The notes under the pieces are model-generated. The model was not told where the DNA came from and ran no database searches. It saw nothing but the letters and a program-made list of their open reading frames with translations. Below, piece by piece: positions 27,506 through 51,092 of a stretch of DNA of 64,000 nucleotides (positions are counted from its first letter, which is position 1; each line of letters begins with the position of its first letter). Source of the DNA: Gammaproteobacteria bacterium (lineage in GTDB: Bacteria > Pseudomonadota > Gammaproteobacteria > Nitrosococcales > Methylophagaceae). A program made the position numbers and the translations under genes. The stretch is taken from assembly GCA_034110895.1 (NCBI GenBank), contig JAWUYH010000025.1, forward strand, positions 671 to 64,670, written 5' to 3'.

Positions 27506-27643
27506 TTCATAATCATCGATAATATAGTTAGAAACAGACAGTCCATTTTAAATATTTAAATAAATAATGTTTTTAGTTGTGATAAACACGATATCGAACA
27601 ACTCATACAATTGTGTAAGAGTATATTGAAGGACAAGGATAAT

Positions 27644-28807: not shown

Positions 28808-28808
28808 G

Positions 28809-32479: not shown

Positions 32480-32506
32480 ATCACTAACTACAAGAGGTAA
32501 ATTATA

Positions 32507-34840: not shown

Positions 34841-34862
34841 AATTAAATATAGGACTGAGCCA

Positions 34863-36524: not shown

Positions 36525-36588
36525 CGCAATAACGATCTAAAGAACGTTATACAGACAATAAAATAAATGAGAAGGTAATAGACGGTAA

Positions 36589-39224: not shown

Positions 39225-40040
39225 TTAAAAAATAGTATCAATCATTTCATGTAATAACAGTTTGGTATCTTCATCATCTGTTATTGCATCAGCCATAGCA
39301 CACCTACATGCCATCTCTGGTTTAAAACCATTTTTAATGAGTTTAGCAGTATGCACAATTAAGCGTGTACTGGCACCTTCTTCTAAGCCGTTACCTACTA
39401 GGTTTCTTGTCATATGGGCTAATTTAACTAAATGTGCACATTGCTGCATATCTAAGCCTGTTTCCTCGTGAACTATTTTTGTTTCAAGTTCTTCGGTCGG
39501 ATAACTAAAATCTATAGCAATAAAACGTTGTCGCGTGCTGGGTTTAAGATCCTTAACTGCACTTTGATAACCTGGATTGTAGGAAATGGTCAGACAAAAG
39601 TCATCTGAAGCTTTGACAAGTTGACCTAATTTTTCAAGTGGAAGTACTCGTCTATAATCACACAAGGGGTGAATAACAACAGTGGTGTCTTTACGTGCCT
39701 CTACGATTTCATCTAAATAACAGATGCAGCCCTCTCTAACGGCGGTGGTTAAAGGGCCATCTACCCAAACCGTACTATCATTTTTAATCAAATAGCGACC
39801 GACTAAATCAGATGTAGTTAAATCATCATGACATGAAACCGTAATTAATGGCCTTTTATGATACCAACTCATATATTCCATAAATCGTGTTTTACCGCAA
39901 CCTGTTGGTCCTTTAAGTAAAACGGGTATTTTCTCAGATAAGGCCGTGTTAAATATCTCAACTTCGTTAGCGGTAGGTAAATAATAAGGCTCTTCATTAA
40001 TCATATATTCTGAGTTATTTACAATAGTATTAGTAGTCAT
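39225..40040 (-). CDS. CbbQ/NorQ/NirQ-family (MoxR-class) AAA+ ATPase
   Basis: LLKGPTGCGKTRFMEYM, DLVGRY, VWVDGPLTTAVREGCICYLDEIVEARKDTTVVIHPL, ISYNPGYQS...KPSTRQRF. Near-canonical CbbQ/NorQ signature blocks. Confidence 0.88.
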   Translation of the reverse strand: MTTNTIVNNSEYMINEEPYYLPTANEVEIFNTALSEKIPVLLKGPTGCGKTRFMEYMSWYHKRPLITVSCHDDLTTSDLVGRYLIKNDSTVWVDGPLTTAVREGCICYLDEIVEARKDTTVVIHPLCDYRRVLPLEKLGQLVKASDDFCLTISYNPGYQSAVKDLKPSTRQRFIAIDFSYPTEELETKIVHEETGLDMQQCAHLVKLAHMTRNLVGNGLEEGASTRLIVHTAKLIKNGFKPEMACRCAMADAITDDEDTKLLLHEMIDTIF

Positions 40041-40045
40041 AGTAT

Positions 40046-42130
40046 TTATGTCGTTAATTGTTTATAAATGGTAGAAATTTGAATAGGTAACATTGCGATA
40101 TTGGAAATTAATCGGAAATGTTTCTTTCCAAGCATATAAGGTAAATAGTCCATAGCCTCCTGATCAAAGGTTAATACAAAAGGATTAATCTGTTGCGCTT
40201 TTGCTTCATTAAAAGCACGGCGAGTATCTTCAACACCATAATGGCCCCTATAACTATCAACGTCATCAGGTTTACCATCTGTCAGTACAAATAAAATTTT
40301 AGTTTTAGCATCAGTCTGTCTTAAGGTTTTACTCAAATGTCTGATAGCAGCGCCCATTCGTGTATATTGCTGTGCTTCAAGAGATAAAATACGCTGTTTA
40401 ATATGATCATTATAGTTTTCATCAAACTTTTTTATAGGATAAATGTGGCACTGTTCGCGGCCTGAACCAGAAAACGCATAAATAGCATACTGATCATTTA
40501 GCTTAGCTAATGTGCGAGATAATAACCAGGTTGATTGCTTGATGATTTTATTTTTCCAGCCGGCGGTTGAGCCACTAATATCAACCGCAAACATAATGGC
40601 AACACTGCGACTATTTTTATTGTTTCTAATATAAAGGTTTTGAAAGTCATCAGCATGTTTTGTTTTATTTGATTTAGCACTAACCCATGCATCAATATCT
40701 ATGTCATCACCGTCACTTTGATAGCGAATAAGTTTTTGATCGTTAATCACTAGATCTAAAGCTTTCTTAATACGATATTCAAAAAACTTCAATTCAGGAT
40801 CATCAATGGTTTGTATTTGCTCATTTTGTAGTTCGATAGGAATTTCTCGAATTCGGCACCAGTCAGTTCGATATTGATTGATCGATGTATCCCATTCCGG
40901 GTATAGATAAGTGTTTTGTTTCTGTTCGTCTCTTAATTTTTCTTGTTTTTGTTGGTGATTTTCAACTTTACCAGCAAGATCTTGCCAAATATCAACTTGT
41001 GATTGACTGGCACTGCTTGGGGCATCTGAGTTGGCATTATGTTTAAAGTAGACACGTTGAGAATCTTGACTATTCTCTTCCTCCTGAGCTATTTCCTCAT
41101 CAGGATTATAAATATTCATATGCACTGGCTGCTTGGTAGTTATTTCTGTTGAATCGTAGATTAATTTTTCAGGTGAAAAATTACTTTGATAAGGTAGACT
41201 AGTAAAATTATTTTGTTTATTAGCCAGTTTCTTCACTAAGGCAATACTATCAAACACGGTAGTTTCTGCGCTGTTAGTCAAGGTTAGTTCAGGATAATCA
41301 TCAATACCTAGCTGCTGCTGTAATTTAATAATATTTTTCCAAATACCTGGAAACTTATGTTTAAGATGTTGATCTATTCTTAAGGTTTCTACTGTTGAAA
41401 ATAAATCAAGGAAGTCATCCCCATATTCAACAACGCCTTGTTTTATTTCCTCTACAGCCAGGTTTGTTTGGCATTCGATTTGACCTAGTTGATGAAAAGC
41501 AATGATTTTATAGAGCAAATAGTTATCCTGATAATTGTCAAATAAGCTAATTGATTCAGGTAGAAAAATACTTTTCCCATTGGTGTATGGTTTATCTTCG
41601 ATGGTGTGATCTAAACGAACTAATGTGTATTCCTGTTCGGTAATAGAAAAGATAAGTTTTTCTAAAATATCAGCAACATTGACGAATTGTGTGGTGGATG
41701 TATTTATTTGAGATTTAAAATCAGTGTAGTTATCGATAAGACTGTTAGCTTTTACTGTCTCCTTTGCACTTACAGCTTCAATAAGTTGTTCTATCCATTG
41801 TTGGTGTTGTGACGTATCCATTATAGTTAATGCAGGTTCGTAGACAAGCATCATAGAATAAGCATGCTCCATAGAGATATCTGCAAGTTGTTCGAGTCGA
41901 TTTAAAAATTCAGATTGTGAGAGATGGCTTAGTTTAGCCAGTTGAGTTACTGGAGCCATGATCGATTCTTTACTTTTAATATCAGTCAAAATCAATTCAA
42001 TACGAATTTTCAACTCTGTTGTGCTCATACCTCCACAAGAACCCGTTTGTTTAGATTCTAATAAGGCGATACGGCCCTTGTTATTTATTGGTATTGCTTT
42101 CTTTTTAAACCAATCACTAATGAACTTCAT
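40046..42130 (-). CDS. CbbO/NorD-like protein with C-terminal von Willebrand factor A domain
   Basis: 694 aa. C-terminal VWA with MIDAS-like VDISGST...S.G...TDG (LTDGKPDD). Lies 5 nt upstream of the CbbQ/NorQ-like gene, the usual pairing. Confidence 0.75.
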   Translation of the reverse strand: MKFISDWFKKKAIPINNKGRIALLESKQTGSCGGMSTTELKIRIELILTDIKSKESIMAPVTQLAKLSHLSQSEFLNRLEQLADISMEHAYSMMLVYEPALTIMDTSQHQQWIEQLIEAVSAKETVKANSLIDNYTDFKSQINTSTTQFVNVADILEKLIFSITEQEYTLVRLDHTIEDKPYTNGKSIFLPESISLFDNYQDNYLLYKIIAFHQLGQIECQTNLAVEEIKQGVVEYGDDFLDLFSTVETLRIDQHLKHKFPGIWKNIIKLQQQLGIDDYPELTLTNSAETTVFDSIALVKKLANKQNNFTSLPYQSNFSPEKLIYDSTEITTKQPVHMNIYNPDEEIAQEEENSQDSQRVYFKHNANSDAPSSASQSQVDIWQDLAGKVENHQQKQEKLRDEQKQNTYLYPEWDTSINQYRTDWCRIREIPIELQNEQIQTIDDPELKFFEYRIKKALDLVINDQKLIRYQSDGDDIDIDAWVSAKSNKTKHADDFQNLYIRNNKNSRSVAIMFAVDISGSTAGWKNKIIKQSTWLLSRTLAKLNDQYAIYAFSGSGREQCHIYPIKKFDENYNDHIKQRILSLEAQQYTRMGAAIRHLSKTLRQTDAKTKILFVLTDGKPDDVDSYRGHYGVEDTRRAFNEAKAQQINPFVLTFDQEAMDYLPYMLGKKHFRLISNIAMLPIQISTIYKQLTT

Positions 42131-42245
42131 TAGATTTATCCACTGAACTATAAATGAAAATTAAGCATGATGGATAGCTGCTGAGTTGTTAATACGTAGT
42201 TTTACTTAATGTGTGAGCTATCGTTAAGGTATATTGTGATAGTTA

Positions 42246-42294
42246 TGTGACAGTTAACGTATAAATTGGCTAATGTTAACGTATAATGTGACAG
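42246..42294. promoter_or_regulatory. Permuted direct repeats TGTGACAG and GTTAACGTATAA in the divergent intergenic region
   Basis: GTTAACGTATAA at 42253..42264 and 42275..42286 (22-bp spacing). TGTGACAG at 42246..42253 and 42287..42294. Variant TGTGATAG at 42235..42242. Confidence 0.4.
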
Positions 42295-42493
42295 ATTATG
42301 GTAGAGATTAAATTTAGCTCGACAATAGATGGCATTTACTAAACATTTGAGCAATTAGTAAACTATATTTATGCTAAGTTGGCTATGTCATAACATACTG
42401 AAAATGAACTTAAATCGATAAAAAAGTGGTCAGTAAGGATATATACGTATACCCAAGAGACCATTAGAAACATACAGTATATGCCAGTTGAGG

Positions 42494-42518
42494 GATTTTC
42501 TATCTAGTCTAGAAAATC
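42494..42518. promoter_or_regulatory. Perfect 9-bp inverted repeat GATTTTCTA-N7-TAGAAAATC about 70 bp upstream of the AlkB-like start
   Basis: Read directly at 42494..42502 / 42510..42518. A 10-bp palindrome TATACGTATA lies at 42442..42451. Operator-like geometry. Confidence 0.35.
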
Positions 42519-42585
42519 GACGGTCATTAGACCGATAAACTTCAATGTGAATTTATAATTATAATTGTCCGGGAGACTAAATGTC

Positions 42586-43770
42586 ATGAAAAAGATTTTG
42601 ATTAATTTAAGGTATTTCTTGGCACCAATACTCATACTAGTAAGTATGGTTGGTGTATTAGTAGGGGGCCCATTTGTATGGGTCGGTGTCATATTATTTG
42701 GGGTAGGTATAGTTCTTGATACCGCAAGTATGAATTTCCACACTAAAGGCGCTGGATTTGATAAAAATGGTGATACCAACGGTATGGCTGGAATGCAAAA
42801 CGCTGTAATGTACATCATGTTACCTGTGTTTGCTCTTTTACAGCTTGCACTAGCATGGCGCGTTTTTGAATATGTTAACGGTGTGCCAATGGCATCTGAA
42901 ATGTTCATGGGTATACCTGTTCAAATTGGTATTACAGGTTCTCAGCTAGTCGGTGCAACATTGTCGACTGGTATCTTTGCAGGAATCGGTATTATCTATG
43001 GTCATGAATTAGCTCATACAAAAGGTTTTAGTTTTGTAATTTCTAGATTGATGATGGGTTTAAGTGGTGCAGCTCATTTTTGTTACGCTCACGTATACAA
43101 TCATCATTTAGAGTTAGCTCATCAAGATGATCCAGCAACATCACCACGCGGTCGTTCTATCTATAGACATTTCTGGTTATCTCACATGGGACAATCAAAA
43201 TTCCTCTATAAAATGGAATCAGTACGTTTAGCTAAGTTAGGAAAATCTTTTATCTCTCTAGATAATAGATGGATCCGTGGTTATTTCATGAGCCTTCCAA
43301 CTATGATTCTGTTTGCATGGGTAGGTGGTCCAATCGGTATCGCATGCATGTTCTTAGTTTGGACAGTATCAAACTTTGAATTAGAAGCGCTTAACTACAT
43401 GGAACATTACGGTCTTATTCGTGAAAAAGGTCAACCTATTGATTATCGCCACTCTTGGGATAATGACAATATGTTTACAAGCTGGTTCTTTATCGAAATT
43501 GGTCGTCAAGGTGATCACCATGACCGTGGAGAAACACACTTTTGGGAATTGGATGAAGTAGGCTCACCTAATCCAGGTTGGGGATATTTCACTGAATTCA
43601 CAATCGCTTTGATTCCACCATTATGGCACTCTGTTTACAAGAAAAAATTAGCAACATGGGACAGAGACTTTGCGTCAGAAGGTGAATTAGCTATAGCAAG
43701 AAAAGTGAATGCACAAGCTAACTATGAAGTGGAAAATGAAAACTCTCCAGCATCATACGCAAAAATTTAG
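42586..43770 (+). CDS. AlkB/XylM-family integral-membrane di-iron hydroxylase (fatty-acid-desaturase superfamily)
   Basis: Boxes GHELAHT, HVYNHHLELAHQDDPATSPRG, NYMEHYGL, HSWDN, GRQGDHH align by eye with P. putida AlkB. Multiple TM segments. RBS gggaga precedes ATG 42586. Confidence 0.85.
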   Translation: MKKILINLRYFLAPILILVSMVGVLVGGPFVWVGVILFGVGIVLDTASMNFHTKGAGFDKNGDTNGMAGMQNAVMYIMLPVFALLQLALAWRVFEYVNGVPMASEMFMGIPVQIGITGSQLVGATLSTGIFAGIGIIYGHELAHTKGFSFVISRLMMGLSGAAHFCYAHVYNHHLELAHQDDPATSPRGRSIYRHFWLSHMGQSKFLYKMESVRLAKLGKSFISLDNRWIRGYFMSLPTMILFAWVGGPIGIACMFLVWTVSNFELEALNYMEHYGLIREKGQPIDYRHSWDNDNMFTSWFFIEIGRQGDHHDRGETHFWELDEVGSPNPGWGYFTEFTIALIPPLWHSVYKKKLATWDRDFASEGELAIARKVNAQANYEVENENSPASYAKI

Positions 43771-43777
43771 TTAAAAC

Positions 43778-43808
43778 GCAGCTGGGATGTTGTCCCAGCT
43801 GCTTTTTT
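43778..43808 (+). terminator. Rho-independent terminator-like hairpin immediately after the AlkB-like gene
   Basis: Perfect 10-bp GC-rich stem gcagctggga/tcccagctgc, 5-nt loop, then T6. Confidence 0.75.
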
Positions 43809-43826
43809 AAATAAATGAGGTGATTT

Positions 43827-44189
43827 ATGAGTGAAGAAAGTTTATACGATAGATTAGGTGGTCACGATGCATTGGTGGCTTTAGCAAGAACTACGTTTAA
43901 TAATCATTGTAAAAATGATTTGATCAAAAATAGATATGTGAATAGTGATCCAGAAGAAGTTGTTAGAAAAGTTGGCGAGTTTATGTGTGCAGGTTTTGGT
44001 GGTAAAGAAGCCTACACGGGTGATGATATGCTAACGGCTCATACAGGAATGAACATTTCAGAAGAAGAGTTTAACGCCGTTGTTGACGATGTTATGAAAG
44101 CACTTGAAACACATAATGCAGGCCAAAGAGAGAAAGATGAAATCTTAGCGGCTTTATGGTCAATGCGTCCTGAAATTGTTCACGTTTAA
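43827..44189 (+). CDS. Truncated haemoglobin (2-on-2 globin), cytoplasmic
   Basis: 120 aa. N-terminal LYDRLGG and ...MLTAHTGMNISEEEFNAVVDDVMKAL are typical trHb helices (proximal His region). Confidence 0.8.
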   Translation: MSEESLYDRLGGHDALVALARTTFNNHCKNDLIKNRYVNSDPEEVVRKVGEFMCAGFGGKEAYTGDDMLTAHTGMNISEEEFNAVVDDVMKALETHNAGQREKDEILAALWSMRPEIVHV

Positions 44190-44214
44190 TTAACCCACTC
44201 CAAGGAGCATCGAT

Positions 44215-44400
44215 ATGAAACTTAATTGGGATAGTGAAGTATGTCAACATGCAGGCGTTTGCGTAACAAAGTTTGCTCATGTTTATTCAATAGAAGATGG
44301 TTCATTTTTAATTGATACTTCAACAGCGACTGATGAAGAATTAAAGATGAGTATAGCTCAATGCCCATCGGGTGCAATCTCAAGTTCAGCCGAAGACTAA
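44215..44400 (+). CDS. YjdI-like 'divergent 4Fe-4S mono-cluster' small iron-sulfur protein
   Basis: 61 aa. VCQHAGVCV ... AQCPSGAIS parallels E. coli YjdI ICQHSGNCV ... CPSGAL. Confidence 0.55.
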   Translation: MKLNWDSEVCQHAGVCVTKFAHVYSIEDGSFLIDTSTATDEELKMSIAQCPSGAISSSAED

Positions 44401-44453
44401 AAATATAACAATAACTATAAAAATAATTAATAACCACTAGGGGAGAGAGAACA

Positions 44454-45140
44454 ATGGCAATAGGTGATCATCTAGCAGATGTAAAAATACTTTATGGTGT
44501 AGCAGGTTGTGCACAAACAAGCAAATGTCTATTTGTAGCAGCTGAAAAAGGCATCGATATTGATGGCCGAGCACTTGATGTGAATTCAGCCACAGACATG
44601 GCACAAATCAAAGCGGGTTCACCGTTTGATATTTTACCAGTACTAAAAGATGTAGATTTCTATGTATATGGTACCGAAGCAATATTGTCATATCTTGATG
44701 ACAAGGGTTTTGGTAATTCGCTAGTACCTAGAAATGGAGTTGCAAGAGCTCAACAATACCAATGGATTGGGGTTGCTCAGCATGTGTTTGCTCCAGAAGT
44801 AAAAAAAATCAGTGATGGGAATTCAGATAGTGTCGCACTAGAAAATGTGAAAGGCATTTTAGCTAATCTTGAAAATCAGCTTACGAGTAAACCACAACGT
44901 GGAGATTATATCGTTGGTGATTTAACCTTAGCAGATATTCACTGGGCTCCTTATATCCATAGCTGTTGCTTGTATGGCAATGAAGCACTTATTGATGCTT
45001 TACCTGCTGTTAAAAAGTGGTGGTCACATATGAAAGTAAGAAAGAGTACGAGTAAAGAAAATTATGTTGCTTACACGGTATTACCATCACTCGATGAAAT
45101 TCGTAACAACATAGTACGTTCAGTCAGTATCAATGCATAA
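44454..45140 (+). CDS. GST-fold protein, paralogue C
   Basis: KILYGVAGCAQTSKCLFVAAEKGIDI, LPVLKD...YGTEAILSYLDDKGFGNSLVPR, LADIHW, C-terminal VLPSLDEIRNN. Confidence 0.6.
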   Translation: MAIGDHLADVKILYGVAGCAQTSKCLFVAAEKGIDIDGRALDVNSATDMAQIKAGSPFDILPVLKDVDFYVYGTEAILSYLDDKGFGNSLVPRNGVARAQQYQWIGVAQHVFAPEVKKISDGNSDSVALENVKGILANLENQLTSKPQRGDYIVGDLTLADIHWAPYIHSCCLYGNEALIDALPAVKKWWSHMKVRKSTSKENYVAYTVLPSLDEIRNNIVRSVSINA

Positions 45141-45178
45141 TATTGATACTTCATTTTAATAATTAATGGGTAGAATTA

Positions 45179-46246
45179 ATGTTCGGATTTTTCAAAAATA
45201 AAAAGCTAGACTACGAAGTAAAAATTAATTCAGGCAATACCCTGGTAGTCAAGGCCGGTGACAACTTGTTAAAAGCAGCCTTACAGGCTGATATTGCATG
45301 GCCTCACGACTGTCGAGTTGGCAGTTGTGGGACCTGTAAATGCAAACTTGTTGACGGCAAAATAAAAGCACTCGCTGATTTCAGTTATGTTTTAGAGGGT
45401 GAAGAGTTACGAGATGGTTATATTTTAGCGTGTCAAACTCAATTAAGATCAGATGTTTCAGTCGAAGTTGCATTGCTTTCTGACAGCGAAAAACAAAGCC
45501 ATTGGGAATCAGATGCTGTAATTACAACTATCAATGATCTTACACATGATATTAAAGAGGTCATAGTTGAGATTGATGTTAATGAGCTGCCTAAAGGTGT
45601 CAGTCTATTTAAAGCCGGCCAGTATGCCGATCTGAAAATACCTGAGTTAAGCGAAGGCAGAAATTATTCATTTGCTTCAGCACCACATGAAAATCAAAAC
45701 CAATTTAAGTTTTATATTAGACACGTACCCGGTGGTGAGTTTACTGACTGGTTATTCGACACCGATCGAACAGGTCAAGCTCTTAAGATGTCAGGGCCTT
45801 TTGGTGTGTTTGGTCTAAAAGAAGATAAGCTACCAATGACATGTATTGCAGGCGGTAGCGGCATGAGTGCAGTCATCAGTGTCTTACAACAGGCACTGTC
45901 GTCTGGAGTAAAACGCAATGTACGTTTCTTATTTGGAGCAAGAACTGAAGCAGATCTTTATTGTGGAGATTTGATTGATCAATTAGCTGCAGATTGGAAA
46001 AAGAAAGGCTTAGGGACATTTGAATATTTACCATGCCTATCACAAGAACCAGAAGCTAGTGCATGGCAGGGCCGAAGAGGTTCTTGCATAGATTATATTG
46101 TTGAAGAGGGTGTCAAACTTTCTGGACAAGCTTATTTATGTGGACCACCTGGAATGATTGATGCCGGAATAAGTATCTTCGAAAAAAACGGCATAACAAA
46201 AGATGCAATATTCTTTGATAAATTTCTTGATAAGAGTAACCAATAA
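45179..46246 (+). CDS. XylA-type oxidoreductase: N-terminal plant-type 2Fe-2S ferredoxin fused to an FAD/NAD(P)H ferredoxin-reductase module
   Basis: CRVGSCGTCKC...ACQT cluster ligands. RNYSFAS flavin motif. GGSGMS and CGPPGM nucleotide-binding motifs. Confidence 0.85.
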   Translation: MFGFFKNKKLDYEVKINSGNTLVVKAGDNLLKAALQADIAWPHDCRVGSCGTCKCKLVDGKIKALADFSYVLEGEELRDGYILACQTQLRSDVSVEVALLSDSEKQSHWESDAVITTINDLTHDIKEVIVEIDVNELPKGVSLFKAGQYADLKIPELSEGRNYSFASAPHENQNQFKFYIRHVPGGEFTDWLFDTDRTGQALKMSGPFGVFGLKEDKLPMTCIAGGSGMSAVISVLQQALSSGVKRNVRFLFGARTEADLYCGDLIDQLAADWKKKGLGTFEYLPCLSQEPEASAWQGRRGSCIDYIVEEGVKLSGQAYLCGPPGMIDAGISIFEKNGITKDAIFFDKFLDKSNQ

Positions 46247-46271
46247 ACTAATAGTTTGGGAGGAAAATACA

Positions 46272-46481
46272 ATGGCTTCATTTAAAGCATTGATAGTAAT
46301 GGCTATATGGACTGGAATCGTAGGGTATGGCTTGTATAGCGTAGGGGCACATCAAAGTGAAAACTATACTCAACCACTTTGGGCAATCGCAATTGGTACT
46401 GGTTTATTAGTAACGCATATTGTAAACATGGCGATTTATTTCAAAGTGGCAGGCGAAAGACCATTTGAGTGGATTAAATAA
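46272..46481 (+). CDS. Small two-TM membrane protein (69 aa)
   Basis: Strong RBS gggagga upstream of ATG 46272. Two hydrophobic helices (ALIVMAIWTGIVGYGLY; LWAIAIGTGLLVTHIV). No homology recognised. Confidence 0.45.
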   Translation: MASFKALIVMAIWTGIVGYGLYSVGAHQSENYTQPLWAIAIGTGLLVTHIVNMAIYFKVAGERPFEWIK

Positions 46482-46539
46482 AATAATTTAACCATTCGTT
46501 AAGTATACAAAAATAAATAAAATAATTTCGGGAGAGAGC

Positions 46540-47796
46540 ATGAATAATAAAAAATATTTAGCAATAGTGATTGCAGCATTAGCTGCCTCATCAACTGCAG
46601 TTGTAGCCGGTACAAACGGTACCGATTTAAATAATAACTTGTTGCCAGCAACGGGTGGTATGGGTGGAGCGAGTGTTGCTCGCACCGTAGAGCCAGCTGC
46701 AGCCGTATTTGGTAACCCTGCCAACTTAACTCAATATAATGAAGGCACTAGTTTTACCTTTGGTGCCACTTATTTTGACCATAATGTCGAAGGTAATGCA
46801 TCAGCTGCTTTTGGTGGTGCAGATATTAAGTCACAAACAAATCCTTATTTAGTACCCACCATTGCTATTACCCAAGCCTTTAGTGAAAACCTTGTAGCAG
46901 GTTTAGGCCTATCTGTAACTGCTGGTCTAGGTGCAGATTTTAGAGGAGAAGGTATTGGCGATCCTCTTAGTGAACTTATTGTGTTTAATGCAAATGTTGG
47001 TGCGGGTTACAAAGTAACAGAAAACTTATCATTGGGCGCTATGGCCACTATTGGTAATGGTTATTTTCAAGCCAGCACAAATGAAAATTCTGGCTCGACT
47101 CATAACTTTGGTTTTAGAGCAACAGTAGGCGGAAAATATGATATGGGCGCTACCAGTTTTGGTGCCTATTACAGAAGTGAACTGAAAATCCGCTACGATA
47201 ATTATATTTCTGATGGAGCCGGTAATTTCTGGGATGATCATGTAGCTCAACCAGCAGAAATAGCGTTTGGTGTTGCTAATAATAGTCTGATGGGCGGAGC
47301 CTTACAAGTTAATGCCGATGTTATTCATAAAGATTATTCTGGTGCTGCTTTCTACAAAGATTTCTATCGTGATCAAACCGTATTTAATTTAGGTGCTCAG
47401 TTAACGACTGGAAAGGCACAATGGCGCGTAGGTTATAGTCATGCTAGAGATCCAATTAAACGTAATCTTGATCCAGGTAATATTGGTATCGGTGGCAACG
47501 ATCCTATCCAAACCCCTTCAGCATTCGTACCATTATTTGGTCCACAGCTTCCTGTTACTGGTCCAGTCGTAGAGTATTTCCAAGCTACTAATGCAGCTGC
47601 TGTTTGGGAAAATACGGTTACCGCAGGTATGGGTTATCAACTAATGCCTAATATTAAAGTAGATATACATGCTGCATTTTCACTAGACAATGAAGAAGAT
47701 ATTGGTACTGCCAATAGTGCTCTCGGCGATAATGTTTGGACAATAGAAGCCTCAGCATGGCAAGCAGGCCTTGGTCTTACATGGTCTTTTAAATAA
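46540..47796 (+). CDS. FadL/TodX/XylN-type outer-membrane hydrophobic-compound channel
   Basis: Signal peptide. N-terminal hatch-like GGMGGASVARTVEPAAAVFGNPANLT. Beta-strand-rich with a terminal ...GLGLTWSF aromatic residue. Confidence 0.7.
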   Translation: MNNKKYLAIVIAALAASSTAVVAGTNGTDLNNNLLPATGGMGGASVARTVEPAAAVFGNPANLTQYNEGTSFTFGATYFDHNVEGNASAAFGGADIKSQTNPYLVPTIAITQAFSENLVAGLGLSVTAGLGADFRGEGIGDPLSELIVFNANVGAGYKVTENLSLGAMATIGNGYFQASTNENSGSTHNFGFRATVGGKYDMGATSFGAYYRSELKIRYDNYISDGAGNFWDDHVAQPAEIAFGVANNSLMGGALQVNADVIHKDYSGAAFYKDFYRDQTVFNLGAQLTTGKAQWRVGYSHARDPIKRNLDPGNIGIGGNDPIQTPSAFVPLFGPQLPVTGPVVEYFQATNAAAVWENTVTAGMGYQLMPNIKVDIHAAFSLDNEEDIGTANSALGDNVWTIEASAWQAGLGLTWSFK

Positions 47797-47817
47797 ACGA
47801 TAGGTTAGGAAATAGAT

Positions 47818-48309
47818 ATGAATACATTAATTAAAAGCATCGCAATCGCGGGAATAATGAGTACTTCATTTGCCGCGATGAATGTTGTTGCAGTAGAAGT
47901 AGCCGCTGAAATGCCAGCAGTAGCAGCACCATCACTTTATGAACGTATTGGTGGGGAAGTTGTATCAAGAGCCATTGTTGAAGATATTTGGACTAACCAT
48001 AGTAACAATCCTATTGTTAAAGGTCGCTTTCTTTATAGTGATGCTGAGCAAGTGAAAGAGCGCGTATTTGAAATATTTGCTGTAGCAACTGGTGGCGATG
48101 TTAAATATAACGGTATGGATTTAGCTGAAAGACATAGCAATATGAATATCAGTGATATGGAATTTAATGCTGCTGTAGATGATATTATGGCTGCATTGAC
48201 TAAAAACAATATTGCTCAAAAAGAAAAAGACGAAGTATTAGTCATTCTATGGTCAGTTAAACCTGCCATAGTTAACACTTTTATGACAACTGAAGCTTTA
48301 ACTAAATAA
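47818..48309 (+). CDS. Truncated haemoglobin with an N-terminal export signal
   Basis: Leader MNTLIKSIAIAGIMSTSFAAMNVVA followed by LYERIGG...AERHSNMNISDMEFNAAVDDIMAAL. Paralogous to 43827..44189. Confidence 0.75.
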   Translation: MNTLIKSIAIAGIMSTSFAAMNVVAVEVAAEMPAVAAPSLYERIGGEVVSRAIVEDIWTNHSNNPIVKGRFLYSDAEQVKERVFEIFAVATGGDVKYNGMDLAERHSNMNISDMEFNAAVDDIMAALTKNNIAQKEKDEVLVILWSVKPAIVNTFMTTEALTK

Positions 48310-48326
48310 ACAAAGTTTGGCTCACT

Positions 48327-48365
48327 AAAACCAACGTCTATATTTAATAGACGTTGGTTTTATTG
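48327..48365 (+). terminator. Rho-independent terminator
   Basis: aaaaccaacgtctat / atagacgttggtttt 15-bp stem, 5-nt loop, T-rich tail. Confidence 0.7.
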
Positions 48366-48441
48366 TTTTAAAGAACGAATATTGTATAACAGTCAAAATA
48401 ATCAGCTACATAAAGCTTACTTATCAATAGAGAGAATTATT

Positions 48442-48705
48442 ATGCCAAAATATATTATTGAAAGAGAAATACCGGGTGCAGGTAACTGGACGCAAGAGGA
48501 TATCGCCGGAATTACAGAAAAATCATGTTCAATCCTAAAAGACATGGGTCCAGAAATAGAATGGCTTCATAGTTATGTGACAGATGATAAAGTTTATTGT
48601 CTATACAATGCTGTCAATGAGCAAGCCGTTATGGATCATGCAACGGAAGGTGGTTTCCCCGCTAATAAAATCACTGAAGTAAAAAATATGCTTAACCCTC
48701 AATAA
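48442..48705 (+). CDS. DUF4242-like small protein
   Basis: MPKYIIEREIPGAGNWTQED...VYCLY.A...AV..HA..GGFPA resembles the DUF4242 family. Start ATG 48442 preferred to 48382. Confidence 0.55.
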   Translation: MPKYIIEREIPGAGNWTQEDIAGITEKSCSILKDMGPEIEWLHSYVTDDKVYCLYNAVNEQAVMDHATEGGFPANKITEVKNMLNPQ

Positions 48706-48739
48706 CGGTTTAAATTTAGCCCAGATTAGAATAATTATA

Positions 48740-49807
48740 ATGCTTAAAACAAGTTTTACTAAATTGGTCGGTATTCAATGGCCAATTGTGCAAGCACCGA
48801 TGATTGGTGGCTATAGCAGTCCTGAAATGGTTGCTATAGTTTCTAACTTAGGTTGTTTAGGCACACTTGCATTGGGTAATTTGAGTGCAGAGCAAGTCAC
48901 ACAACACTGTCTACAAGCCTTAGCACTGACCGATAAACCTATTGCTGCCAATTTATTTGCACATTCCAATCAAGAGTTCATAAGCGAGACAGATAAGACG
49001 CCAGCAATTAAGGCTCTACAAACTCATTATCAGCAGTTAGATATTGATGACAGTGTACTGTTTAATCAAACCTTAACTGACTTACCTGATTTAGATTCAC
49101 AGGTTGAAGCCATTATTAATACCGCGGTGCCCATTGTCAGCTTCACTTTTGGAATTCCTAATCGCGCTATCGTAAAAAAACTTAAACAACATGGTAAAAT
49201 CGTTATTGCAACGGCAACTACTATTGAAGAAGCCAAACAAATTGAACAAAATGATTTTGACGCGGTGATCTTACAAGGTATCGAAGCAGGTGGTCACCGC
49301 GCTTCCTTTCTTAGCGATGGACATAGCGGTCCAACGTCACAATCATTACTCAAACAAACACAACAAGCCATTTCTATTCCCATCGTCATTACCGGTGGCA
49401 TCATGAATGGTCAGCATATAGCGCAGCACATTAACAATGGTGCTAAAGCTTGTCAGCTTGGTACGGCCTTTTTATTCACTAATGAGTCTAAAATAGAACC
49501 TTTTTATTTGCAAGCATTGTTACAACAACAAAATAAAACCTGTCTTAGTAAGGCTTTTACCGGTAAATATGCACGTATTATTAACAATAAGTTTGCTCAA
49601 CAAATGGTCAATAAGGCTATTGCTGACTTTCCCTATCAAGGACAATTAACATCAAGTCTTCGTAGTAAAGCAACAGCGCTAGCACAGTATGAATACCTTC
49701 CTTTTTGGGCGGGTGAATCATATGCCTTAGGCTGTCTTCAATCGGCCGAAATGCTGACAAAAAAACTAATTAAAGAATTACAGAGCGCAATCAGCACTCA
49801 AAAGTGA
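48740..49807 (+). CDS. Nitronate monooxygenase (2-nitropropane dioxygenase) family FMN enzyme
   Basis: IQWPIVQAPMIGG, LQGIEAGGHRASF, ITGGI motifs of the NMO TIM-barrel family. Confidence 0.8.
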   Translation: MLKTSFTKLVGIQWPIVQAPMIGGYSSPEMVAIVSNLGCLGTLALGNLSAEQVTQHCLQALALTDKPIAANLFAHSNQEFISETDKTPAIKALQTHYQQLDIDDSVLFNQTLTDLPDLDSQVEAIINTAVPIVSFTFGIPNRAIVKKLKQHGKIVIATATTIEEAKQIEQNDFDAVILQGIEAGGHRASFLSDGHSGPTSQSLLKQTQQAISIPIVITGGIMNGQHIAQHINNGAKACQLGTAFLFTNESKIEPFYLQALLQQQNKTCLSKAFTGKYARIINNKFAQQMVNKAIADFPYQGQLTSSLRSKATALAQYEYLPFWAGESYALGCLQSAEMLTKKLIKELQSAISTQK

Positions 49808-49901: not shown

Positions 49902-51092
49902 ATGACAGATCTTATATTACATAAGCATGAAAAGTATATTACAGAAGACTTAGGTTATTATTTCTCTGGTAAAAGAGATATCAATAATCAAGTTCGACCC
50001 AGTCAAGATATTTACAGCTTAACGCTTAACTCTCAGCACTTCAATATCGATTATAACGATGGCAAAGTAGGTAATTTGTTTTTCCCAATCCCTGCTTTTT
50101 CAGTTGATCGGATTTATCTAGGAATAAGTTTTCCACTATTTGCCAATAACTGGGGAAGCTCTTTTCTTCGTTACTTATTGACTAGGATAAAACCCAACGG
50201 TTGTATAATATTACCGGTCTACCCTGAAATGCAGGCTTCCGAAAAAAACCTATGGTCTAGAAGTATCTTAGAAGATTCCTTTCTTAGTCGTAGCCGTTGG
50301 AAAGGCACAAGTAATATTTGGGCAGAAAACGACGGTGTTATGTCGATACGAGTCGGTCGGAAATGGCCTGCAATGATTAGAAGCACCGCTAAATATTTGT
50401 TTGCTCAAGGTACTCATATTATTGTACGAAATAGTCTAAAAAACAGTGCGGTTAGTACCAGTGAATCACTTTTTAAGTTGGGTAACATCTATTGGAATAA
50501 TGCCAATAATGCTGCGATTTTAGAAACTATTATTCAAGATCACTTTGGCAGGAAACAAGCCGTGTCCTTGTGTGATTTGGGAGATAGCAATGGCCTTGCA
50601 GCTATAGAATGTCTGCTAAGTGATTATATCAATATAAAGCAGGCGATATGTTTTACCACTGAAAATGAAGACTTGATCGACTATAAATTATTACTAAATA
50701 GTTTTCATCATGAAATCCATAATCGTTATAGTCCTATAAATAGCAGTAAACTTGACACATTAGCATTGTTAGCTAGTTTCGATGTTATATGTATTATTGA
50801 CTGTTTATCCACTTATGATTCACAAACAGATATTGAACAATTATTATTAAAAGCCTGGCAGAAAGTCACTGTTGGAGGTTTGTTGATTATTAAAGATGAA
50901 CAAAATATTAACGATAATATAAAGTCATTATTAGCCTCCTTTGGCAGCATTAACTATTATTCATCAATCGTTGCATCAAAAATAATCGATGACGAACAGA
51001 TTTCACACTATAGCTCAAAGATAGAACAAGAGTTAGTGATTGAAAGCCGTGATAAAAACCAAGCATTCCATATTATTGAGAAGCTGACATAA
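49902..51092 (+). CDS. Hypothetical protein with a class-I SAM-methyltransferase-like C-terminal half
   Basis: VSLCDLGDSNGLAA (motif I-like), FDVICIIDCL, VTVGGLLIIKD (post-II/III-like). The N-terminal half also has RIKPNGCIILPV. Weak, motif-level evidence only. Confidence 0.4.
   Translation: MTDLILHKHEKYITEDLGYYFSGKRDINNQVRPSQDIYSLTLNSQHFNIDYNDGKVGNLFFPIPAFSVDRIYLGISFPLFANNWGSSFLRYLLTRIKPNGCIILPVYPEMQASEKNLWSRSILEDSFLSRSRWKGTSNIWAENDGVMSIRVGRKWPAMIRSTAKYLFAQGTHIIVRNSLKNSAVSTSESLFKLGNIYWNNANNAAILETIIQDHFGRKQAVSLCDLGDSNGLAAIECLLSDYINIKQAICFTTENEDLIDYKLLLNSFHHEIHNRYSPINSSKLDTLALLASFDVICIIDCLSTYDSQTDIEQLLLKAWQKVTVGGLLIIKDEQNINDNIKSLLASFGSINYYSSIVASKIIDDEQISHYSSKIEQELVIESRDKNQAFHIIEKLT

What the first reader, a model, noticed from the sequence alone, without database searches (positions are those of the whole stretch)
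39225..49807. AlkB/XylM-type membrane monooxygenase locus with a non-textbook accessory set
Seen in sequence: an AlkB-family hydroxylase (42586..43770) is followed on the same strand by a truncated haemoglobin, a YjdI-like Fe-S protein, a GST-fold protein and a 2Fe-2S/FNR reductase. A 69-aa membrane protein, a FadL/TodX-like channel, an exported second truncated haemoglobin, DUF4242 and a nitronate monooxygenase come next. A CbbQ/NorQ + CbbO/NorD pair is transcribed divergently. Established knowledge: the textbook partner sets are XylM/XylA/XylN and AlkB/rubredoxin/rubredoxin reductase. The hydroxylase + XylA-like reductase + FadL-like channel fits the xyl logic. Globins, a GST and a MoxR/VWA pair belong to neither paradigm. 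Inference: a self-contained uptake, oxygenation and conjugation module for a small hydrophobic or volatile substrate, possibly an undescribed system.
Basis: partly seen in the sequence, partly recalled or inferred. Interest (0 to 1): 0.82.

Follow-up and report, generated by a model that had tools for sequence, protein, structure and literature searches.

The report
Candidate membrane dimethylsulfide monooxygenase gene cluster
A conserved gene cluster built around an unusual relative of the alkane-oxidising enzyme AlkB lies inside a methanethiol and sulfur-oxidation island. Its exact counterpart in Methylophaga thiooxydans is switched on roughly 30- to 140-fold by dimethylsulfide, which makes it the best candidate so far for the still-unidentified enzyme that starts dimethylsulfide breakdown in marine methylotrophs.

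Summary
The gene order is conserved. The full 13-gene set recurs in Methylophagaceae. A core of AlkB-like hydroxylase, truncated globin, Fer4_19 protein, Cys-type GST, 2Fe-2S/FNR reductase and a small membrane protein recurs in relatives only 66-69% identical.

The window is a methylated-sulfur island carrying sox genes, a bona fide methanethiol oxidase MtoX, a SCO1/MauG fusion, a persulfide dioxygenase and an SQR.

Methylophaga thiooxydans DMS010 carries the same cluster gene for gene. Published RNA-seq and proteomics, re-mapped here, show strong induction on DMS versus methanol:
- hydroxylase, 136-fold
- reductase, 52-fold
- exported globin, 29-fold
- adjacent CysB-type regulator, 61-fold
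- SCO4226-like protein, 9-fold at the protein level

The authors read the hydroxylase as a lipid desaturase. The first enzyme of DMS catabolism in this genus is still called unidentified.

Best explanation (confidence about 0.6): a multicomponent AlkB-type DMS monooxygenase feeding MtoX. The family is tight and isolated, and one of the nine invariant His ligands is replaced by Gln. No enzyme activity has been shown. This is a new variant of a known kind.

The parts
39225..40040 (-). NorQ/CbbQ-type MoxR AAA+ ATPase (271 aa), divergent from the hydroxylase operon
   Evidence: Pfam AAA_5 + CbbQ_C. Matches CbbQ 5c3c at 327 bits and NorQ 9qhd at 320 bits. Walker A GPTGCGKT is read from the sequence. 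82% identical to the M. thiooxydans orthologue.
40046..42130 (-). NorD-like VWA partner (694 aa) with the MIDAS motif DISGS
   Evidence: Pfam VWA at residues 512-663. Matches NorD 9qhd_G at E 3e-40 over residues 401-692, with no CbbO match.
42131..42585 (.). 455-bp divergent intergenic (promoter) region, with a local repeat TGTGACAG-TTAACGTATAA / GTTAACGTATAA-TGTGACAG at about 42246-42294
   Evidence: Sequence. The repeat is not conserved in orthologous intergenic regions.
42586..43770 (+). AlkB-like integral-membrane di-iron hydroxylase (394 aa). Motifs: H140ELAH144, H169VYNH173H174, N270YMEH274YG, Q308GDH311H312
   Evidence: PF00487. FtAlkB by sequence, E 2e-29, and by fold, TM 0.67-0.71. 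Gln replaces the first His of the last motif in 115 of 116 full-length homologues. 85% identical to M. thiooxydans EEF81234.1 = MDMS009_226, whose expression was 1359 on DMS versus 10 on methanol.
43778..43802 (+). GC-rich hairpin directly after the hydroxylase stop codon (11-bp stem, followed by a T-run here)
   Evidence: A hairpin at the same position but with a different sequence is present in all 14 loci folded.
43827..44189 (+). Cytoplasmic group-1 truncated haemoglobin of subgroup N-2 type (120 aa)
   Evidence: Pfam Bac_globin. The closest solved structure is Shewanella benthica SbHbN, E 4e-28, sharing Phe B10, His B13 and Tyr CD1.
44215..44400 (+). Fer4_19 (YjdI-like) small Fe-S protein (61 aa), a candidate electron shuttle
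   Evidence: Pfam PF06902, E 7e-12. Conserved in the core operon.
44454..45140 (+). GST-fold protein with conserved Cys19, the cis-Pro motif PVL and a family-specific C-terminal extension
   Evidence: Pfam GST N- and C-terminal domains. Alignment of 30 orthologues. Register against maize GST I 1axd.
45179..46246 (+). NADH-dependent reductase: plant-type 2Fe-2S domain + FAD + NAD domains (XylA/BenC/MmoC architecture)
   Evidence: Pfam. NCBIfam BenC 209 bits and MmoC 199 bits, both below cut-off. The orthologue EEF81069.1 = MDMS009_61 showed 618 versus 12.
46272..46481 (+). 69-aa membrane protein (DUF1145-like), part of the conserved core
   Evidence: Conserved after the reductase gene in near and distant loci. 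UniRef names the orthologue DUF1145.
46540..47796 (+). FadL/TodX-family outer-membrane channel (418 aa)
   Evidence: Homologues carry PF03349 and are named OmpP1/FadL. 68% identical to the M. thiooxydans orthologue.
47818..48309 (+). Second group-1 truncated haemoglobin with an N-terminal signal-like extension (163 aa)
   Evidence: Pfam Bac_globin at residues 39-148. The orthologue EEF81207.1 = MDMS009_199 showed 601 versus 21.
48442..48705 (+). SCO4226-like (DUF4242) small protein
   Evidence: Pfam E 2.5e-27. The published MDMS009_82 protein sequence (9.3-fold up on DMS) is identical to the L081 cluster gene and 72% identical to this ORF.
48740..49807 (+). NMO-family FMN oxidoreductase
   Evidence: Pfam NMO, E 5e-63. 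Sources name the orthologue 'NAD(P)H-dependent flavin oxidoreductase'.
49902..51092 (+). Tandem methyltransferase-fold protein (396 aa). It forms the tail of the cluster in Methylophagaceae only
   Evidence: No Pfam or NCBIfam hit. Model pLDDT 88.6. Foldseek finds two-domain class I methyltransferases. It stands alone in a sponge-type genome.
22198..25581 (+). Context: methanethiol oxidase MtoX (22198-23577) and a SCO1/MauG fusion (23596-25581), the proposed downstream step
   Evidence: NCBIfam MthilOxMtoX at 741 bits, cut-off 650. Pfam SBP56, SCO1-SenC + CCP_MauG.
26456..33283 (+). Context that travels with the cluster in Methylophagaceae: MetX-like hydrolase, ACAD-like protein, PAS histidine kinase, FixJ/LuxR-type response regulator, and two GST paralogues
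34136..38343 (+). Context: persulfide-dioxygenase-type MBL protein, sulfurtransferase-SQR fusion, SulP permease

Best explanation
The locus encodes a multicomponent, membrane-bound monooxygenase of the AlkB/XylM type. Its physiological substrate is probably dimethylsulfide (DMS).

Proposed working:
1. DMS crosses the outer membrane through the FadL-family channel.
2. NADH electrons pass through the 2Fe-2S/FAD reductase, probably via the small Fer4_19 protein, to the di-iron centre of the inner-membrane hydroxylase.
3. The hydroxylase hydroxylates one S-methyl group.
4. The resulting hemithioacetal (CH3-S-CH2OH) falls apart to methanethiol and formaldehyde.
5. MtoX oxidises the methanethiol, and the sulfide is handled by SQR, persulfide dioxygenase and Sox, all encoded in the same window. 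Formaldehyde enters methylotrophic metabolism.

Proposed accessory roles:
- The NorQ/NorD-like pair most likely loads or repairs iron in the histidine-rich site, by analogy with NorQD and nitric oxide reductase.
- The Cys-type GST and the two apolar-pocket truncated globins probably manage reactive by-products such as thiol adducts, peroxide or O2.

Shown here: gene content, family and fold assignments, synteny, the island context, and DMS induction of the orthologous M. thiooxydans genes.
Inferred: the substrate, the reaction product and every accessory role.
For: (1) The hydroxylase is a real AlkB-fold protein with a dedicated reductase.

(2) The window also holds an equivalog-level MtoX, a SCO1/MauG fusion, a persulfide dioxygenase, an SQR and soxCDYZAXB. 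In L003, mtoX lies 6 kb upstream of the cluster.

(3) M. thiooxydans DMS010 scaffold GG657883.1 carries the same genes in the same order, 47-85% identical.

(4) Locus tags map to accessions with a constant offset, fixed by four source-labelled pairs. With that mapping, Table S6 of PMC6548844 gives, for DMS versus methanol:
- hydroxylase MDMS009_226: 1359 versus 10
- reductase MDMS009_61: 618 versus 12
- exported globin MDMS009_199: 601 versus 21
- adjacent CysB-type regulator MDMS009_120: 669 versus 11
The annotation names also match. The SCO4226-like protein MDMS009_82 was 9.3-fold up in the proteome, and its published sequence is identical to the cluster gene.

(5) Neither dmoA nor ddhA is present in M. 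thiooxydans or M. sulfidovorans, and the first DMS enzyme is stated to be unidentified (PMC9563715). A 2026 review lists only DmoA for DMS to methanethiol. M. sulfidovorans also has the whole cluster (L013).

(6) From my own knowledge: AlkB of P. putida is known to oxidise methyl thioethers and to demethylate methyl ethers (Katopodis, Smith and May, 1988).

(7) Exact duplication of the hydroxylase gene within genomes suggests a high-flux catabolic enzyme.
Against: - No enzyme assay or mutant exists.
- Induction on DMS could be a response to DMS-derived methanethiol, sulfide or peroxide rather than to the substrate itself. The adjacent regulator is of the CysB type.
- Boden et al. 2010, as cited in PMC6548844, found no DMS monooxygenase activity in M. 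thiooxydans extracts and proposed a methyltransferase. Membrane multicomponent oxygenases do often lose activity in extracts.
- The known AlkB chemistry on thioethers is sulfoxidation, which would give DMSO rather than methanethiol.
- One of the nine otherwise invariant His ligands is replaced by Gln, so the chemistry may differ from that of AlkB.
- mtoX lies next to the cluster only in the window and L003. Whether the sponge-associated and Rhodobiaceae carriers have mtoX could not be checked.
- The FadL-type protein listed in Table S6 (MDMS009_906) is, by the accession offset, not the cluster's own channel.
Confidence: 0.6

Rival explanations
1. The same enzyme system acts on DMS but oxygenates the sulfur atom, giving DMSO or DMSO2. 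It would serve detoxification, energy or sulfur assimilation rather than producing methanethiol.
For: From my own knowledge, AlkB sulfoxidises methyl alkyl sulfides. All the DMS-induction and island evidence fits equally well. In Acinetobacter baylyi, DMS is oxidised stepwise to DMSO and DMSO2 by other monooxygenases (PMC13352529).
Against: M. thiooxydans grows on DMS as a carbon source, with MtoX induced up to about 470-fold (17350 versus 37). That requires a source of methanethiol, and no other candidate was induced. No DMSO- or DMSO2-processing genes (sfnG, msuD, DMSO reductase) were seen in the window.
Confidence: 0.1
2. One reading: a hydroxylase or epoxidase for a small hydrocarbon (short alkane, alkene or isoprene-like volatile), with GST conjugation of the product. 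The sulfur island would be a neighbour by coincidence.
For: AlkB fold, XylA-like reductase and FadL-type channel. Monooxygenase-plus-GST pairs exist in isoprene and styrene catabolism (my own knowledge). Methylophaga has been implicated in hydrocarbon degradation by stable-isotope probing (title of PMC3936186).
Against: - Induction by DMS in a defined medium without hydrocarbons.
- The GST is Cys-type, not a conjugating type.
- No alcohol or aldehyde dehydrogenase and no epoxide-pathway genes are in the cluster.
- The family is 65% or more diverged from any canonical AlkB and has an altered metal site.
Confidence: 0.12
3. A stress-defence module induced by the products of DMS catabolism (methanethiol, sulfide, H2O2, possibly NO). 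The globins, the GST and the NorQD-like pair would be the functional centre, and the hydroxylase would modify an endogenous membrane compound. This includes the original authors' idea of a fatty-acid desaturase repairing peroxide-damaged lipids.
For: - The authors' interpretation.
- The closest solved globin, SbHbN, reacts with peroxide and does not bind O2 reversibly.
- A CysB-type regulator is adjacent and induced.
- Solo copies in sponge-type genomes lie next to fabA and a MerR-type regulator.
Against: - Only the AlkB fold is matched, not SCD1-type desaturases (PMC10110569).
- The NYxEHYG motif is typical of AlkB.
- A dedicated NADH reductase and an outer-membrane uptake channel argue for an external hydrophobic substrate.
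- The fabA neighbourhood belongs to one syntenic clade and carries little weight.
Confidence: 0.1
4. The DMS-attacking enzyme of the island is a different protein: the ACAD-fold protein (27611-28807) working with the NMO-type flavin reductase, or the tandem methyltransferase-fold protein (49902-51092) acting as the long-postulated 'DMS methyltransferase'. The AlkB-like system would then act on a downstream or side product.
For: ACAD-fold flavin monooxygenases oxidise DMS and DMSO in A. baylyi. The ACAD and MetX-like genes travel with the cluster. A methyltransferase was proposed by Boden et al.. The 396-aa protein has a methyltransferase fold.
Against: - The ACAD is closer to true acyl-CoA dehydrogenases (130 bits) than to DszC (about 70 bits).
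- Class I SAM methyltransferases donate methyl groups rather than remove them from thioethers (my own knowledge).
- The 396-aa family occurs on its own, away from the hydroxylase, in sponge-type genomes.
- Neither protein appears among the induced genes listed in the tables I could read.
Confidence: 0.06

Closest known systems
AlkB / AlkG / AlkT alkane hydroxylase system (P. putida GPo1; FtAlkB structures 8F6T and 8SBB)
   Same: Same fold (TM 0.67-0.71). About 25-30% identity over the catalytic core. Motifs HELxH, HxxxHH, NYxEHYG and xxDHH are present, as are the conserved Glu (E273 here, E281 in FtAlkB) and Leu (L274 equivalent).
   Different: - No rubredoxin or rubredoxin reductase.
- The first His of the last motif (FtAlkB H321) is Gln, and the Glu before motif 2 is Ala (AHVYNHH). 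Both changes hold across the family.
- Bulkier residues (Phe, Trp) sit where FtAlkB has channel-lining L315 and L313. This is read from the alignment and interpreted by me.
- The accessory set and the likely substrate differ.
XylM / XylA / XylN xylene monooxygenase (TOL plasmid)
   Same: The logic is the same: a membrane di-iron hydroxylase, a single reductase with an N-terminal plant-type 2Fe-2S domain and an FNR module, and a FadL-family outer-membrane channel. XylA and XylN architectures are from my own knowledge.
   Different: Similarity to XylM itself was not measured. XylMA has no globins, Fer4_19 protein, GST, DUF1145 protein or NorQD pair. The context here is sulfur metabolism, not aromatic catabolism.
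AlkB-like hydroxylases fused to ferredoxin and ferredoxin reductase ('ferr_ferrR_AlkB', Williams and Austin 2022, PMC8918992)
   Same: These are the nearest relatives in a search of 1.84 billion representatives (30-37% identity). Their fused 2Fe-2S motif (SCRIGSCGTCKCKL) is almost the same as that of the separate reductase here (DCRVGSCGTCKCKL).
   Different: They keep the canonical EHVYGHH and RHS(D/H)HH motifs. Their reductase is fused rather than separate. There is a sharp identity gap: at least about 60% within the family versus at most 37% to these relatives.
DmoA/DmoB DMS monooxygenase of Hyphomicrobium sulfonivorans
   Same: The proposed overall reaction is the same (DMS + O2 + NADH gives methanethiol + formaldehyde), as is the position upstream of MtoX.
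   Different: It is unrelated in sequence and cofactor: DmoA is a soluble FMNH2-dependent luciferase-type enzyme. No dmoA is present in the Methylophaga genomes.
NorQ / NorD (maturation of nitric oxide reductase) and CbbQ / CbbO (Rubisco activase)
   Same: The ATPase matches NorQ and CbbQ about equally (320-327 bits). The VWA partner matches NorD at E 3e-40. Both form a MoxR AAA+ and VWA pair with a MIDAS motif.
   Different: The window contains no norCB and no Rubisco genes. The pair is adjacent to the hydroxylase only in the Methylophagaceae clade. Its client is inferred, not shown.
amoCAB / pmoCAB multi-copy membrane monooxygenase genes
   Same: The catalytic-subunit gene occurs in two or three copies per genome, some of them 100% identical in DNA over exactly the gene while the flanks differ.
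   Different: The proteins are unrelated (copper enzymes versus a di-iron AlkB fold). Here only the hydroxylase gene is duplicated, not the operon.

Membership tests
AlkB/XylM-type integral-membrane di-iron monooxygenases (FADS-like superfamily) | PF00487 domain and AlkB fold | tested here: met
   PF00487, E 5e-24. Foldseek finds FtAlkB 8f6t (TM 0.71) and 8sbb (TM 0.67) at probability 1.00, and no other fold below E 0.1.
AlkB/XylM-type integral-membrane di-iron monooxygenases (FADS-like superfamily) | Nine invariant His ligands in four motifs (HELxH, EHxxGHH, NYxEHYG, HxxHH) | tested here: not met
   Eight of the nine are present. The first His of the last motif is Gln308 (RQGDHH) in 115 of 116 full-length family members. 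PMC10110569 calls these His residues invariant and indispensable.
AlkB/XylM-type integral-membrane di-iron monooxygenases (FADS-like superfamily) | Dedicated NAD(P)H-linked electron-transfer partner encoded nearby | tested here: met
   The Fer2+FAD+NAD reductase gene lies 1.4 kb downstream and is conserved in the core operon.
Canonical AlkB alkane hydroxylase system | Rubredoxin (AlkG) and rubredoxin reductase (AlkT) partners, or a fused rubredoxin | tested here: not met
   No rubredoxin-type ORF is in the cluster or among the ORFs listed for the window. The partners are a 2Fe-2S/FNR reductase and a Fer4_19 protein.
Canonical AlkB alkane hydroxylase system | Alkane omega-hydroxylation activity | not testable with these tools
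   This needs an enzyme assay. No NCBIfam alkane-monooxygenase model is matched at E<0.01.
XylMA-type two-component xylene monooxygenase | Hydroxylase plus a reductase with an N-terminal plant-type ferredoxin domain, plus a FadL-type channel | tested here: met
   Domain order Fer2-FAD-NAD. The channel's homologues carry PF03349. Direct similarity to XylM and XylA was not measured.
DmoA-type DMS monooxygenase | Luciferase-like FMNH2-dependent oxygenase with a flavin reductase | tested here: not met
   The cluster has no luciferase-like monooxygenase. The resemblance would be in function only.
NorQ/NorD metal-insertion chaperone | MoxR AAA+ with a CbbQ_C domain, plus a VWA/MIDAS partner homologous to NorD | tested here: met
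NorQ/NorD metal-insertion chaperone | Encoded with, and acting on, NorCB nitric oxide reductase | tested here: not met
   No norC or norB is in the window. The pair is divergent from the AlkB-like gene in 9 Methylophagaceae loci.
Group 1 truncated haemoglobin, subgroup N-2 | Bac_globin fold, proximal His F8, hydrophobic B10 and E11 | tested here: met
   Pfam. The alignment to SbHbN shows Phe B10, His B13, Tyr CD1 and the conserved 'AH' proximal site. Residue roles are from PMC11904497.
Conjugating (Ser/Tyr-type) glutathione S-transferases | Catalytic Ser or Tyr at the start of helix 1 | tested here: not met
   Cys19 occupies that position and is conserved in 26 of 27 cluster GST orthologues. 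The register is taken from the phmmer match to 1axd and assumes no gap in the first residues.

The most novel reading that the evidence does not exclude
This is a previously unrecognised, globally distributed family of membrane-bound DMS monooxygenases. It would be the missing first enzyme of DMS catabolism in marine Methylophagaceae, and possibly a way for sulfur-oxidising sponge symbionts, Thiothrix-like bacteria and Rhodobiaceae to harvest sulfur and C1 units from DMS. The enzyme would use an eight-His-plus-Gln di-iron site, be matured by a NorQD-type chaperone, be served by globins and a Cys-GST, and have its catalytic gene kept in identical multiple copies like amoA and pmoA.
Probability: 0.45. 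Interest if true: 0.88.

Novelty: new variant of a known kind. Interest (0 to 1): 0.78.

Why it matters
DMS is the main biogenic sulfur gas leaving the ocean, and most of it is consumed by bacteria before it escapes. Only one enzyme that converts DMS to methanethiol (DmoA) is known, and it is absent from Methylophaga, the marine methylotrophs that stable-isotope probing repeatedly identifies as DMS consumers. The literature I could read still calls their enzyme unidentified in 2022 and lists only DmoA in 2026.

If this cluster is that enzyme:
- It provides a marker gene for a major DMS sink. More than 1200 homologues are already present in marine metagenomes.
- It shows that many 'alkB' or 'alkane 1-monooxygenase' calls in ocean surveys are mis-assigned to hydrocarbon degradation.
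- It gives enzymologists a natural AlkB variant with one His ligand replaced by Gln and a new set of helper proteins.

All of this is directly testable in a cultivated, sequenced strain.

Tried and rejected
- Literature searches for a prior description found none. I tried AlkB with truncated haemoglobin or NorQ, Methylophaga with alkB, methanethiol oxidase with alkB, and DMS monooxygenase with Methylophaga. The library lacks most subscription journals.
- Rfam over the whole window gave no match.
- The repeat TGTGACAG/GTTAACGTATAA in the divergent intergenic region is not conserved in ten orthologous regions, so I did not pursue it as an operator.
- I considered the ACAD-like protein as a DszC/Dms-type flavin monooxygenase. 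It scores much better against true acyl-CoA dehydrogenases.
- I considered the 396-aa protein as a core component. It has a tandem methyltransferase fold but stands alone, far from the hydroxylase, in a sponge-type genome.
- I tried to equate the FadL-type protein of Table S6 (MDMS009_906) with the cluster's channel. The accession offset instead gives MDMS009_172 for the cluster's channel, so 906 is probably a paralogue.
- M. thiooxydans was missing from the 80 loci kept by the genome scan although it has the cluster. Absence from that list is therefore not evidence of absence, and I made no claim about Methylophaga species that lack the cluster.
- NCBIfam has no model matching the hydroxylase, either globin, or the Fer4_19 protein.

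Full report
**Observation**

On the minus strand:
- 39225-40040 is a MoxR-type AAA+ ATPase with a CbbQ_C domain.
- 40046-42130 is a 694-aa protein with a C-terminal VWA domain.

On the plus strand, separated by gaps of only 21-132 nt:
- an FA_desaturase-superfamily protein (42586-43770)
- a Bac_globin (43827-44189)
- a Fer4_19 protein (44215-44400)
- a GST-fold protein (44454-45140)
- a Fer2+FAD+NAD reductase (45179-46246)
- a 69-aa membrane protein (46272-46481)
- an outer-membrane protein (46540-47796)
- a second Bac_globin with an N-terminal hydrophobic extension (47818-48309)
- an SCO4226-like protein (48442-48705)
- an NMO-family flavoprotein (48740-49807)

The outer-membrane protein has no Pfam hit of its own, but most of its homologues carry PF03349 (FadL/TodX).

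The hydroxylase matches FtAlkB in sequence (E 2e-29). Its AlphaFold model (pLDDT 79, pTM 0.82) matches only the two FtAlkB entries in the PDB (TM 0.67-0.71).

**Conservation**

The hydroxylase has 1263 homologues at E<=1e-5, nearly all from marine samples. The 120 best are 67-100% identical.

I fetched eighty genomic loci. The whole gene order, including the divergent ATPase/VWA pair, recurs in the Methylophagaceae clade (L002-L006, L010, L012, L013). A core of hydroxylase, (globin), Fer4_19, GST, reductase and small membrane protein recurs in relatives only 66-69% identical. These include sponge-associated gammaproteobacteria labelled Candidatus Porisulfidus and MAGs labelled Thiotrichales. 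In the sponge-associated group this core sits between housekeeping genes (pnp, msrB | core | gluQ, dksA, xseA), so it behaves as a self-contained module.

A HMMER search of 1.84 billion cluster representatives shows that the family is tight and isolated. It collapses into one full-length 50%-identity cluster plus fragments. The next relatives are at most 37% identical. Those relatives keep the canonical AlkB motifs, and several are fused to a ferredoxin/ferredoxin-reductase module.

**An altered metal site**

FtAlkB binds two irons through nine histidines. These are described as invariant and indispensable, and the last motif is H321xxHH325 (PMC10110569).

In this family the motif reads RQ(G/A)DHH in 115 of 116 full-length members. 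Gln308 therefore replaces the first of these histidines. Motif 2 reads AHVYNHH rather than EHxxGHH. The NYMEHYG motif and its glutamate are kept.

In the alignment, Phe and Trp stand where FtAlkB has the channel-lining L315 and L313. I read this as consistent with a small substrate, but it is only an inference.

The rest of the window is a methylated-sulfur island. It carries:
- soxC, D, Y, (Z), A and B at 13.6-21 kb
- a methanethiol oxidase at 22198-23577 that passes NCBI's equivalog cut-off (741 bits against 650)
- the SCO1/MauG fusion that accompanies mtoX
- a thioredoxin-like protein
- a MetX-like hydrolase and an ACAD-like protein
- a PAS histidine kinase with a FixJ/LuxR-type response regulator
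- two further GST paralogues
- a persulfide-dioxygenase-type MBL protein
- a sulfurtransferase-SQR fusion and a SulP permease

An O-acetylhomoserine sulfhydrylase-like gene lies just downstream, assigned from its sequence only.

The MetX-like, ACAD, kinase and regulator genes accompany the cluster in every Methylophagaceae locus, on one side or the other. In L003, mtoX lies 6 kb upstream of the cluster.

**The link to dimethylsulfide**

A full-text search led to Kroeber and Schaefer 2019 (PMC6548844), who compared M. thiooxydans DMS010 grown on DMS and on methanol. They reported a strongly induced 'fatty acid desaturase' and an NAD(P)H flavin reductase. They explained these as membrane-lipid maintenance under peroxide stress, and they stated that the primary DMS-degrading enzyme had not been found.

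I retrieved the M. thiooxydans locus through the orthologue of the outer-membrane channel. Scaffold GG657883.1 carries, in the same order and orientation:
- a CysB-family LysR regulator
- two small hypothetical genes
- the NorQ-like and VWA genes
- the hydroxylase, globin, Fer4_19, GST, reductase and DUF1145-like protein
- the FadL-type channel, second globin, SCO4226-like protein and NMO
- the 398-aa protein, MetX-like hydrolase, ACAD, PAS kinase, regulator and the two GST paralogues

Pairwise identities to the window proteins are 47-85%.

Locus tags were mapped as follows. Four proteins carry the tag in a source label:
- EEF81060.1 = MDMS009_52
- EEF81167.1 = MDMS009_159
- EEF81103.1 = MDMS009_95
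- EEF81141.1 = MDMS009_133

This gives a constant offset of 81008. With that offset:
- EEF81234.1 ('fatty acid desaturase domain protein') is MDMS009_226.
- EEF81069.1 ('oxidoreductase NAD-binding domain protein') is MDMS009_61.
- EEF81207.1 (the 163-aa globin) is MDMS009_199.
- EEF81128.1 (CysB family) is MDMS009_120.

The names agree with those in Table S6. That table gives expression on DMS versus methanol as 1359/10, 618/12, 601/21 and 669/11 respectively.

There is independent support that does not rely on the offset. Table S5 prints the sequence of MDMS009_82, a 'hypothetical protein' 9.3-fold more abundant on DMS. That sequence is identical to the SCO4226-like gene of the cluster and 72% identical to 48442-48705.

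Five genes in or beside the orthologous cluster are therefore among the most DMS-responsive in the organism. The same is true of mtoX (17350/37) and SCO1/MauG.

**State of knowledge**

- M. thiooxydans and M. sulfidovorans lack dmoA and ddhA. Both have this cluster (L081, L013).
- A 2022 paper from the same group still says the gene for the Methylophaga DMS-to-methanethiol step 'remains unidentified'.
- A June 2026 review lists only DmoA for that reaction.
- A 2026 study of Acinetobacter found flavin enzymes, not AlkB-type ones.
- I found no paper connecting an AlkB-like enzyme with DMS.

**Most likely mechanism**

The reductase has the plant-type C-x4-C-x2-C...C motif, RxYS and GGxG motifs (read) and the XylA/BenC/MmoC architecture. 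It can take electrons from NADH.

The Fer4_19 protein is conserved in the core. It stands where rubredoxin stands in alk systems, so it is the obvious candidate shuttle (inferred).

The hydroxylase would hydroxylate a methyl group of DMS. The hemithioacetal product decomposes to methanethiol and formaldehyde (established chemistry of the DmoA reaction), which feeds the neighbouring MtoX and the sulfide-oxidising enzymes.

From my own knowledge, AlkB of P. putida demethylates methyl ethers and sulfoxidises methyl thioethers. DMS is thus within the family's reach, but S-oxygenation to DMSO is a real alternative.

The ATPase is as close to NorQ as to CbbQ, and its partner matches NorD (E 3e-40). 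NorQD is known for inserting the non-haem iron of nitric oxide reductase (my own knowledge). Iron loading of the histidine-rich site is therefore the most economical reading. The pair is adjacent only in Methylophagaceae.

The GST keeps the G-site cis-Pro and has a conserved Cys at the catalytic position. This argues for thiol exchange (methanethiol-glutathione mixed disulfides, or hemithioacetal exchange) rather than conjugation.

The cytoplasmic globin is closest to Shewanella benthica SbHbN, with which it shares Phe B10, His B13 and Tyr CD1. SbHbN does not bind O2 reversibly and reacts with peroxide. A role in handling peroxide or small sulfur ligands is therefore as likely as O2 delivery.

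All accessory roles are inferred.

**Caveats**

- Nothing here shows activity.
- Induction could be secondary to methanethiol, sulfide or peroxide. The adjacent regulator is of the CysB type.
- Boden et al. found no DMS monooxygenase activity in extracts (cited).
- The altered ligand set may mean different chemistry.
- Whether carriers outside Methylophagaceae possess mtoX is unknown.
- Hairpins after the hydroxylase gene and after the second globin gene mean that co-transcription of the whole row is not established.
- In M. thiooxydans the hydroxylase transcript is about twice as abundant as those of the reductase and the second globin. That fits partial termination or selective mRNA stabilisation at the first hairpin.

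**Verdict**

The finding is real and the gene set is conserved. The neighbourhood plus re-mapped public expression data turn a generic 'odd AlkB locus' into a specific, testable candidate for the missing DMS monooxygenase of marine methylotrophs.

It belongs to a known kind (AlkB/XylM-type membrane monooxygenases) but fails one defining feature, the nine-His site. It also has a new partner set and probably a new substrate. I therefore rate it a new variant of a known kind, with interest 0.78.

Noticed in passing
L022/L023, L028/L039, L027/L052, L062/L063, L034/L036 (hydroxylase at about 9991-11240 in each): In long-read MAG chromosomes of sponge-associated gammaproteobacteria, the operon copy and a 'solo' copy of the hydroxylase gene are 100% identical in DNA (99.6% in one pair). 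The identity runs from about 10 nt before the start codon to the stop codon or about 100 nt beyond, and the flanks are unrelated. Third copies are 80-83% identical in protein. This resembles the concerted evolution of amoA and pmoA copies.
   Followed up: partly
window 43778-43802; the same position in L081, L013, L001-L006, L010, L023, L027, L039, L022: A strong GC-rich hairpin follows the hydroxylase stop codon in every locus folded. The stem sequences differ, and only some are followed by a T-run. It may be an intercistronic mRNA stabiliser or a partial terminator that sets the ratio of hydroxylase to accessory proteins.
   Followed up: partly
window 49902-51092: This conserved 396-aa protein has no Pfam or NCBIfam match. 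It folds with high confidence (pLDDT 88.6) into two tandem class I methyltransferase-like domains, and the N-terminal half is the more conserved. The family has 253 members. It also occurs in the sponge-type genomes that carry the hydroxylase, but elsewhere on the chromosome.
   Followed up: partly
window 31814-32479, 32507-33283 and 44454-45140: There are three GST-fold paralogues in one window. The cluster GST and the 258-aa paralogue share an unusual C-terminal extension (…STSKE/SNCGQ…LPSL-D/E-I…S-V/I-x-I-N/K).
   Followed up: no
L084 (Logan assembly of SRR8295928, 8964 nt) and L083 (SRR8295927): One M. thiooxydans contig starts 237 nt upstream of the hydroxylase start codon and ends 238 nt after the 398-aa gene, so it spans exactly the 11-gene row. 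The run numbers are close to what would be expected for the RNA-seq project PRJNA509071. If it is an RNA-seq assembly, this would be evidence for continuous high expression across the row. I could not verify what these runs are.
   Followed up: no
L018, L022, L026, L033, L053, L075 and about 25 others, upstream of the solo hydroxylase copies: Solo copies lie divergent from a 322-aa MerR-type regulator and next to fabA. Some have a molybdopterin oxidoreductase and a second reductase paralogue (39-42% identical) 4-6 kb downstream. All these loci belong to one syntenic clade, so the association carries little weight.
   Followed up: partly
L023, L029, L062 and 9 other loci, about 590-650 nt upstream of the hydroxylase: In the sponge-associated clade the core operon is immediately preceded by msrB (methionine-R-sulfoxide reductase), another enzyme that acts on a methyl-sulfur compound.
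   Followed up: no
window 42246-42294: The divergent promoter region contains a near-palindromic arrangement, TGTGACAG-TTAACGTATAA … GTTAACGTATAA-TGTGACAG. It is not conserved in orthologous regions.
   Followed up: yes
window 26456-28807 and 52709-53983: A MetX-like hydrolase (NCBIfam PRK07581, 447 bits) paired with an ACAD-like protein travels with the cluster, and an O-acetylhomoserine sulfhydrylase-like gene lies just downstream. Together these could assimilate methanethiol directly into methionine. The sponge-type locus L085 likewise has a hydrolase and a Cys/Met-metabolism PLP enzyme near the 398-aa homologue.
   Followed up: no
public annotations of family members: Sources name these proteins 'alkane 1-monooxygenase', 'fatty acid desaturase' or 'hypothetical protein'. 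Ocean surveys that count alkB by homology probably include this family as hydrocarbon degraders.
   Followed up: no
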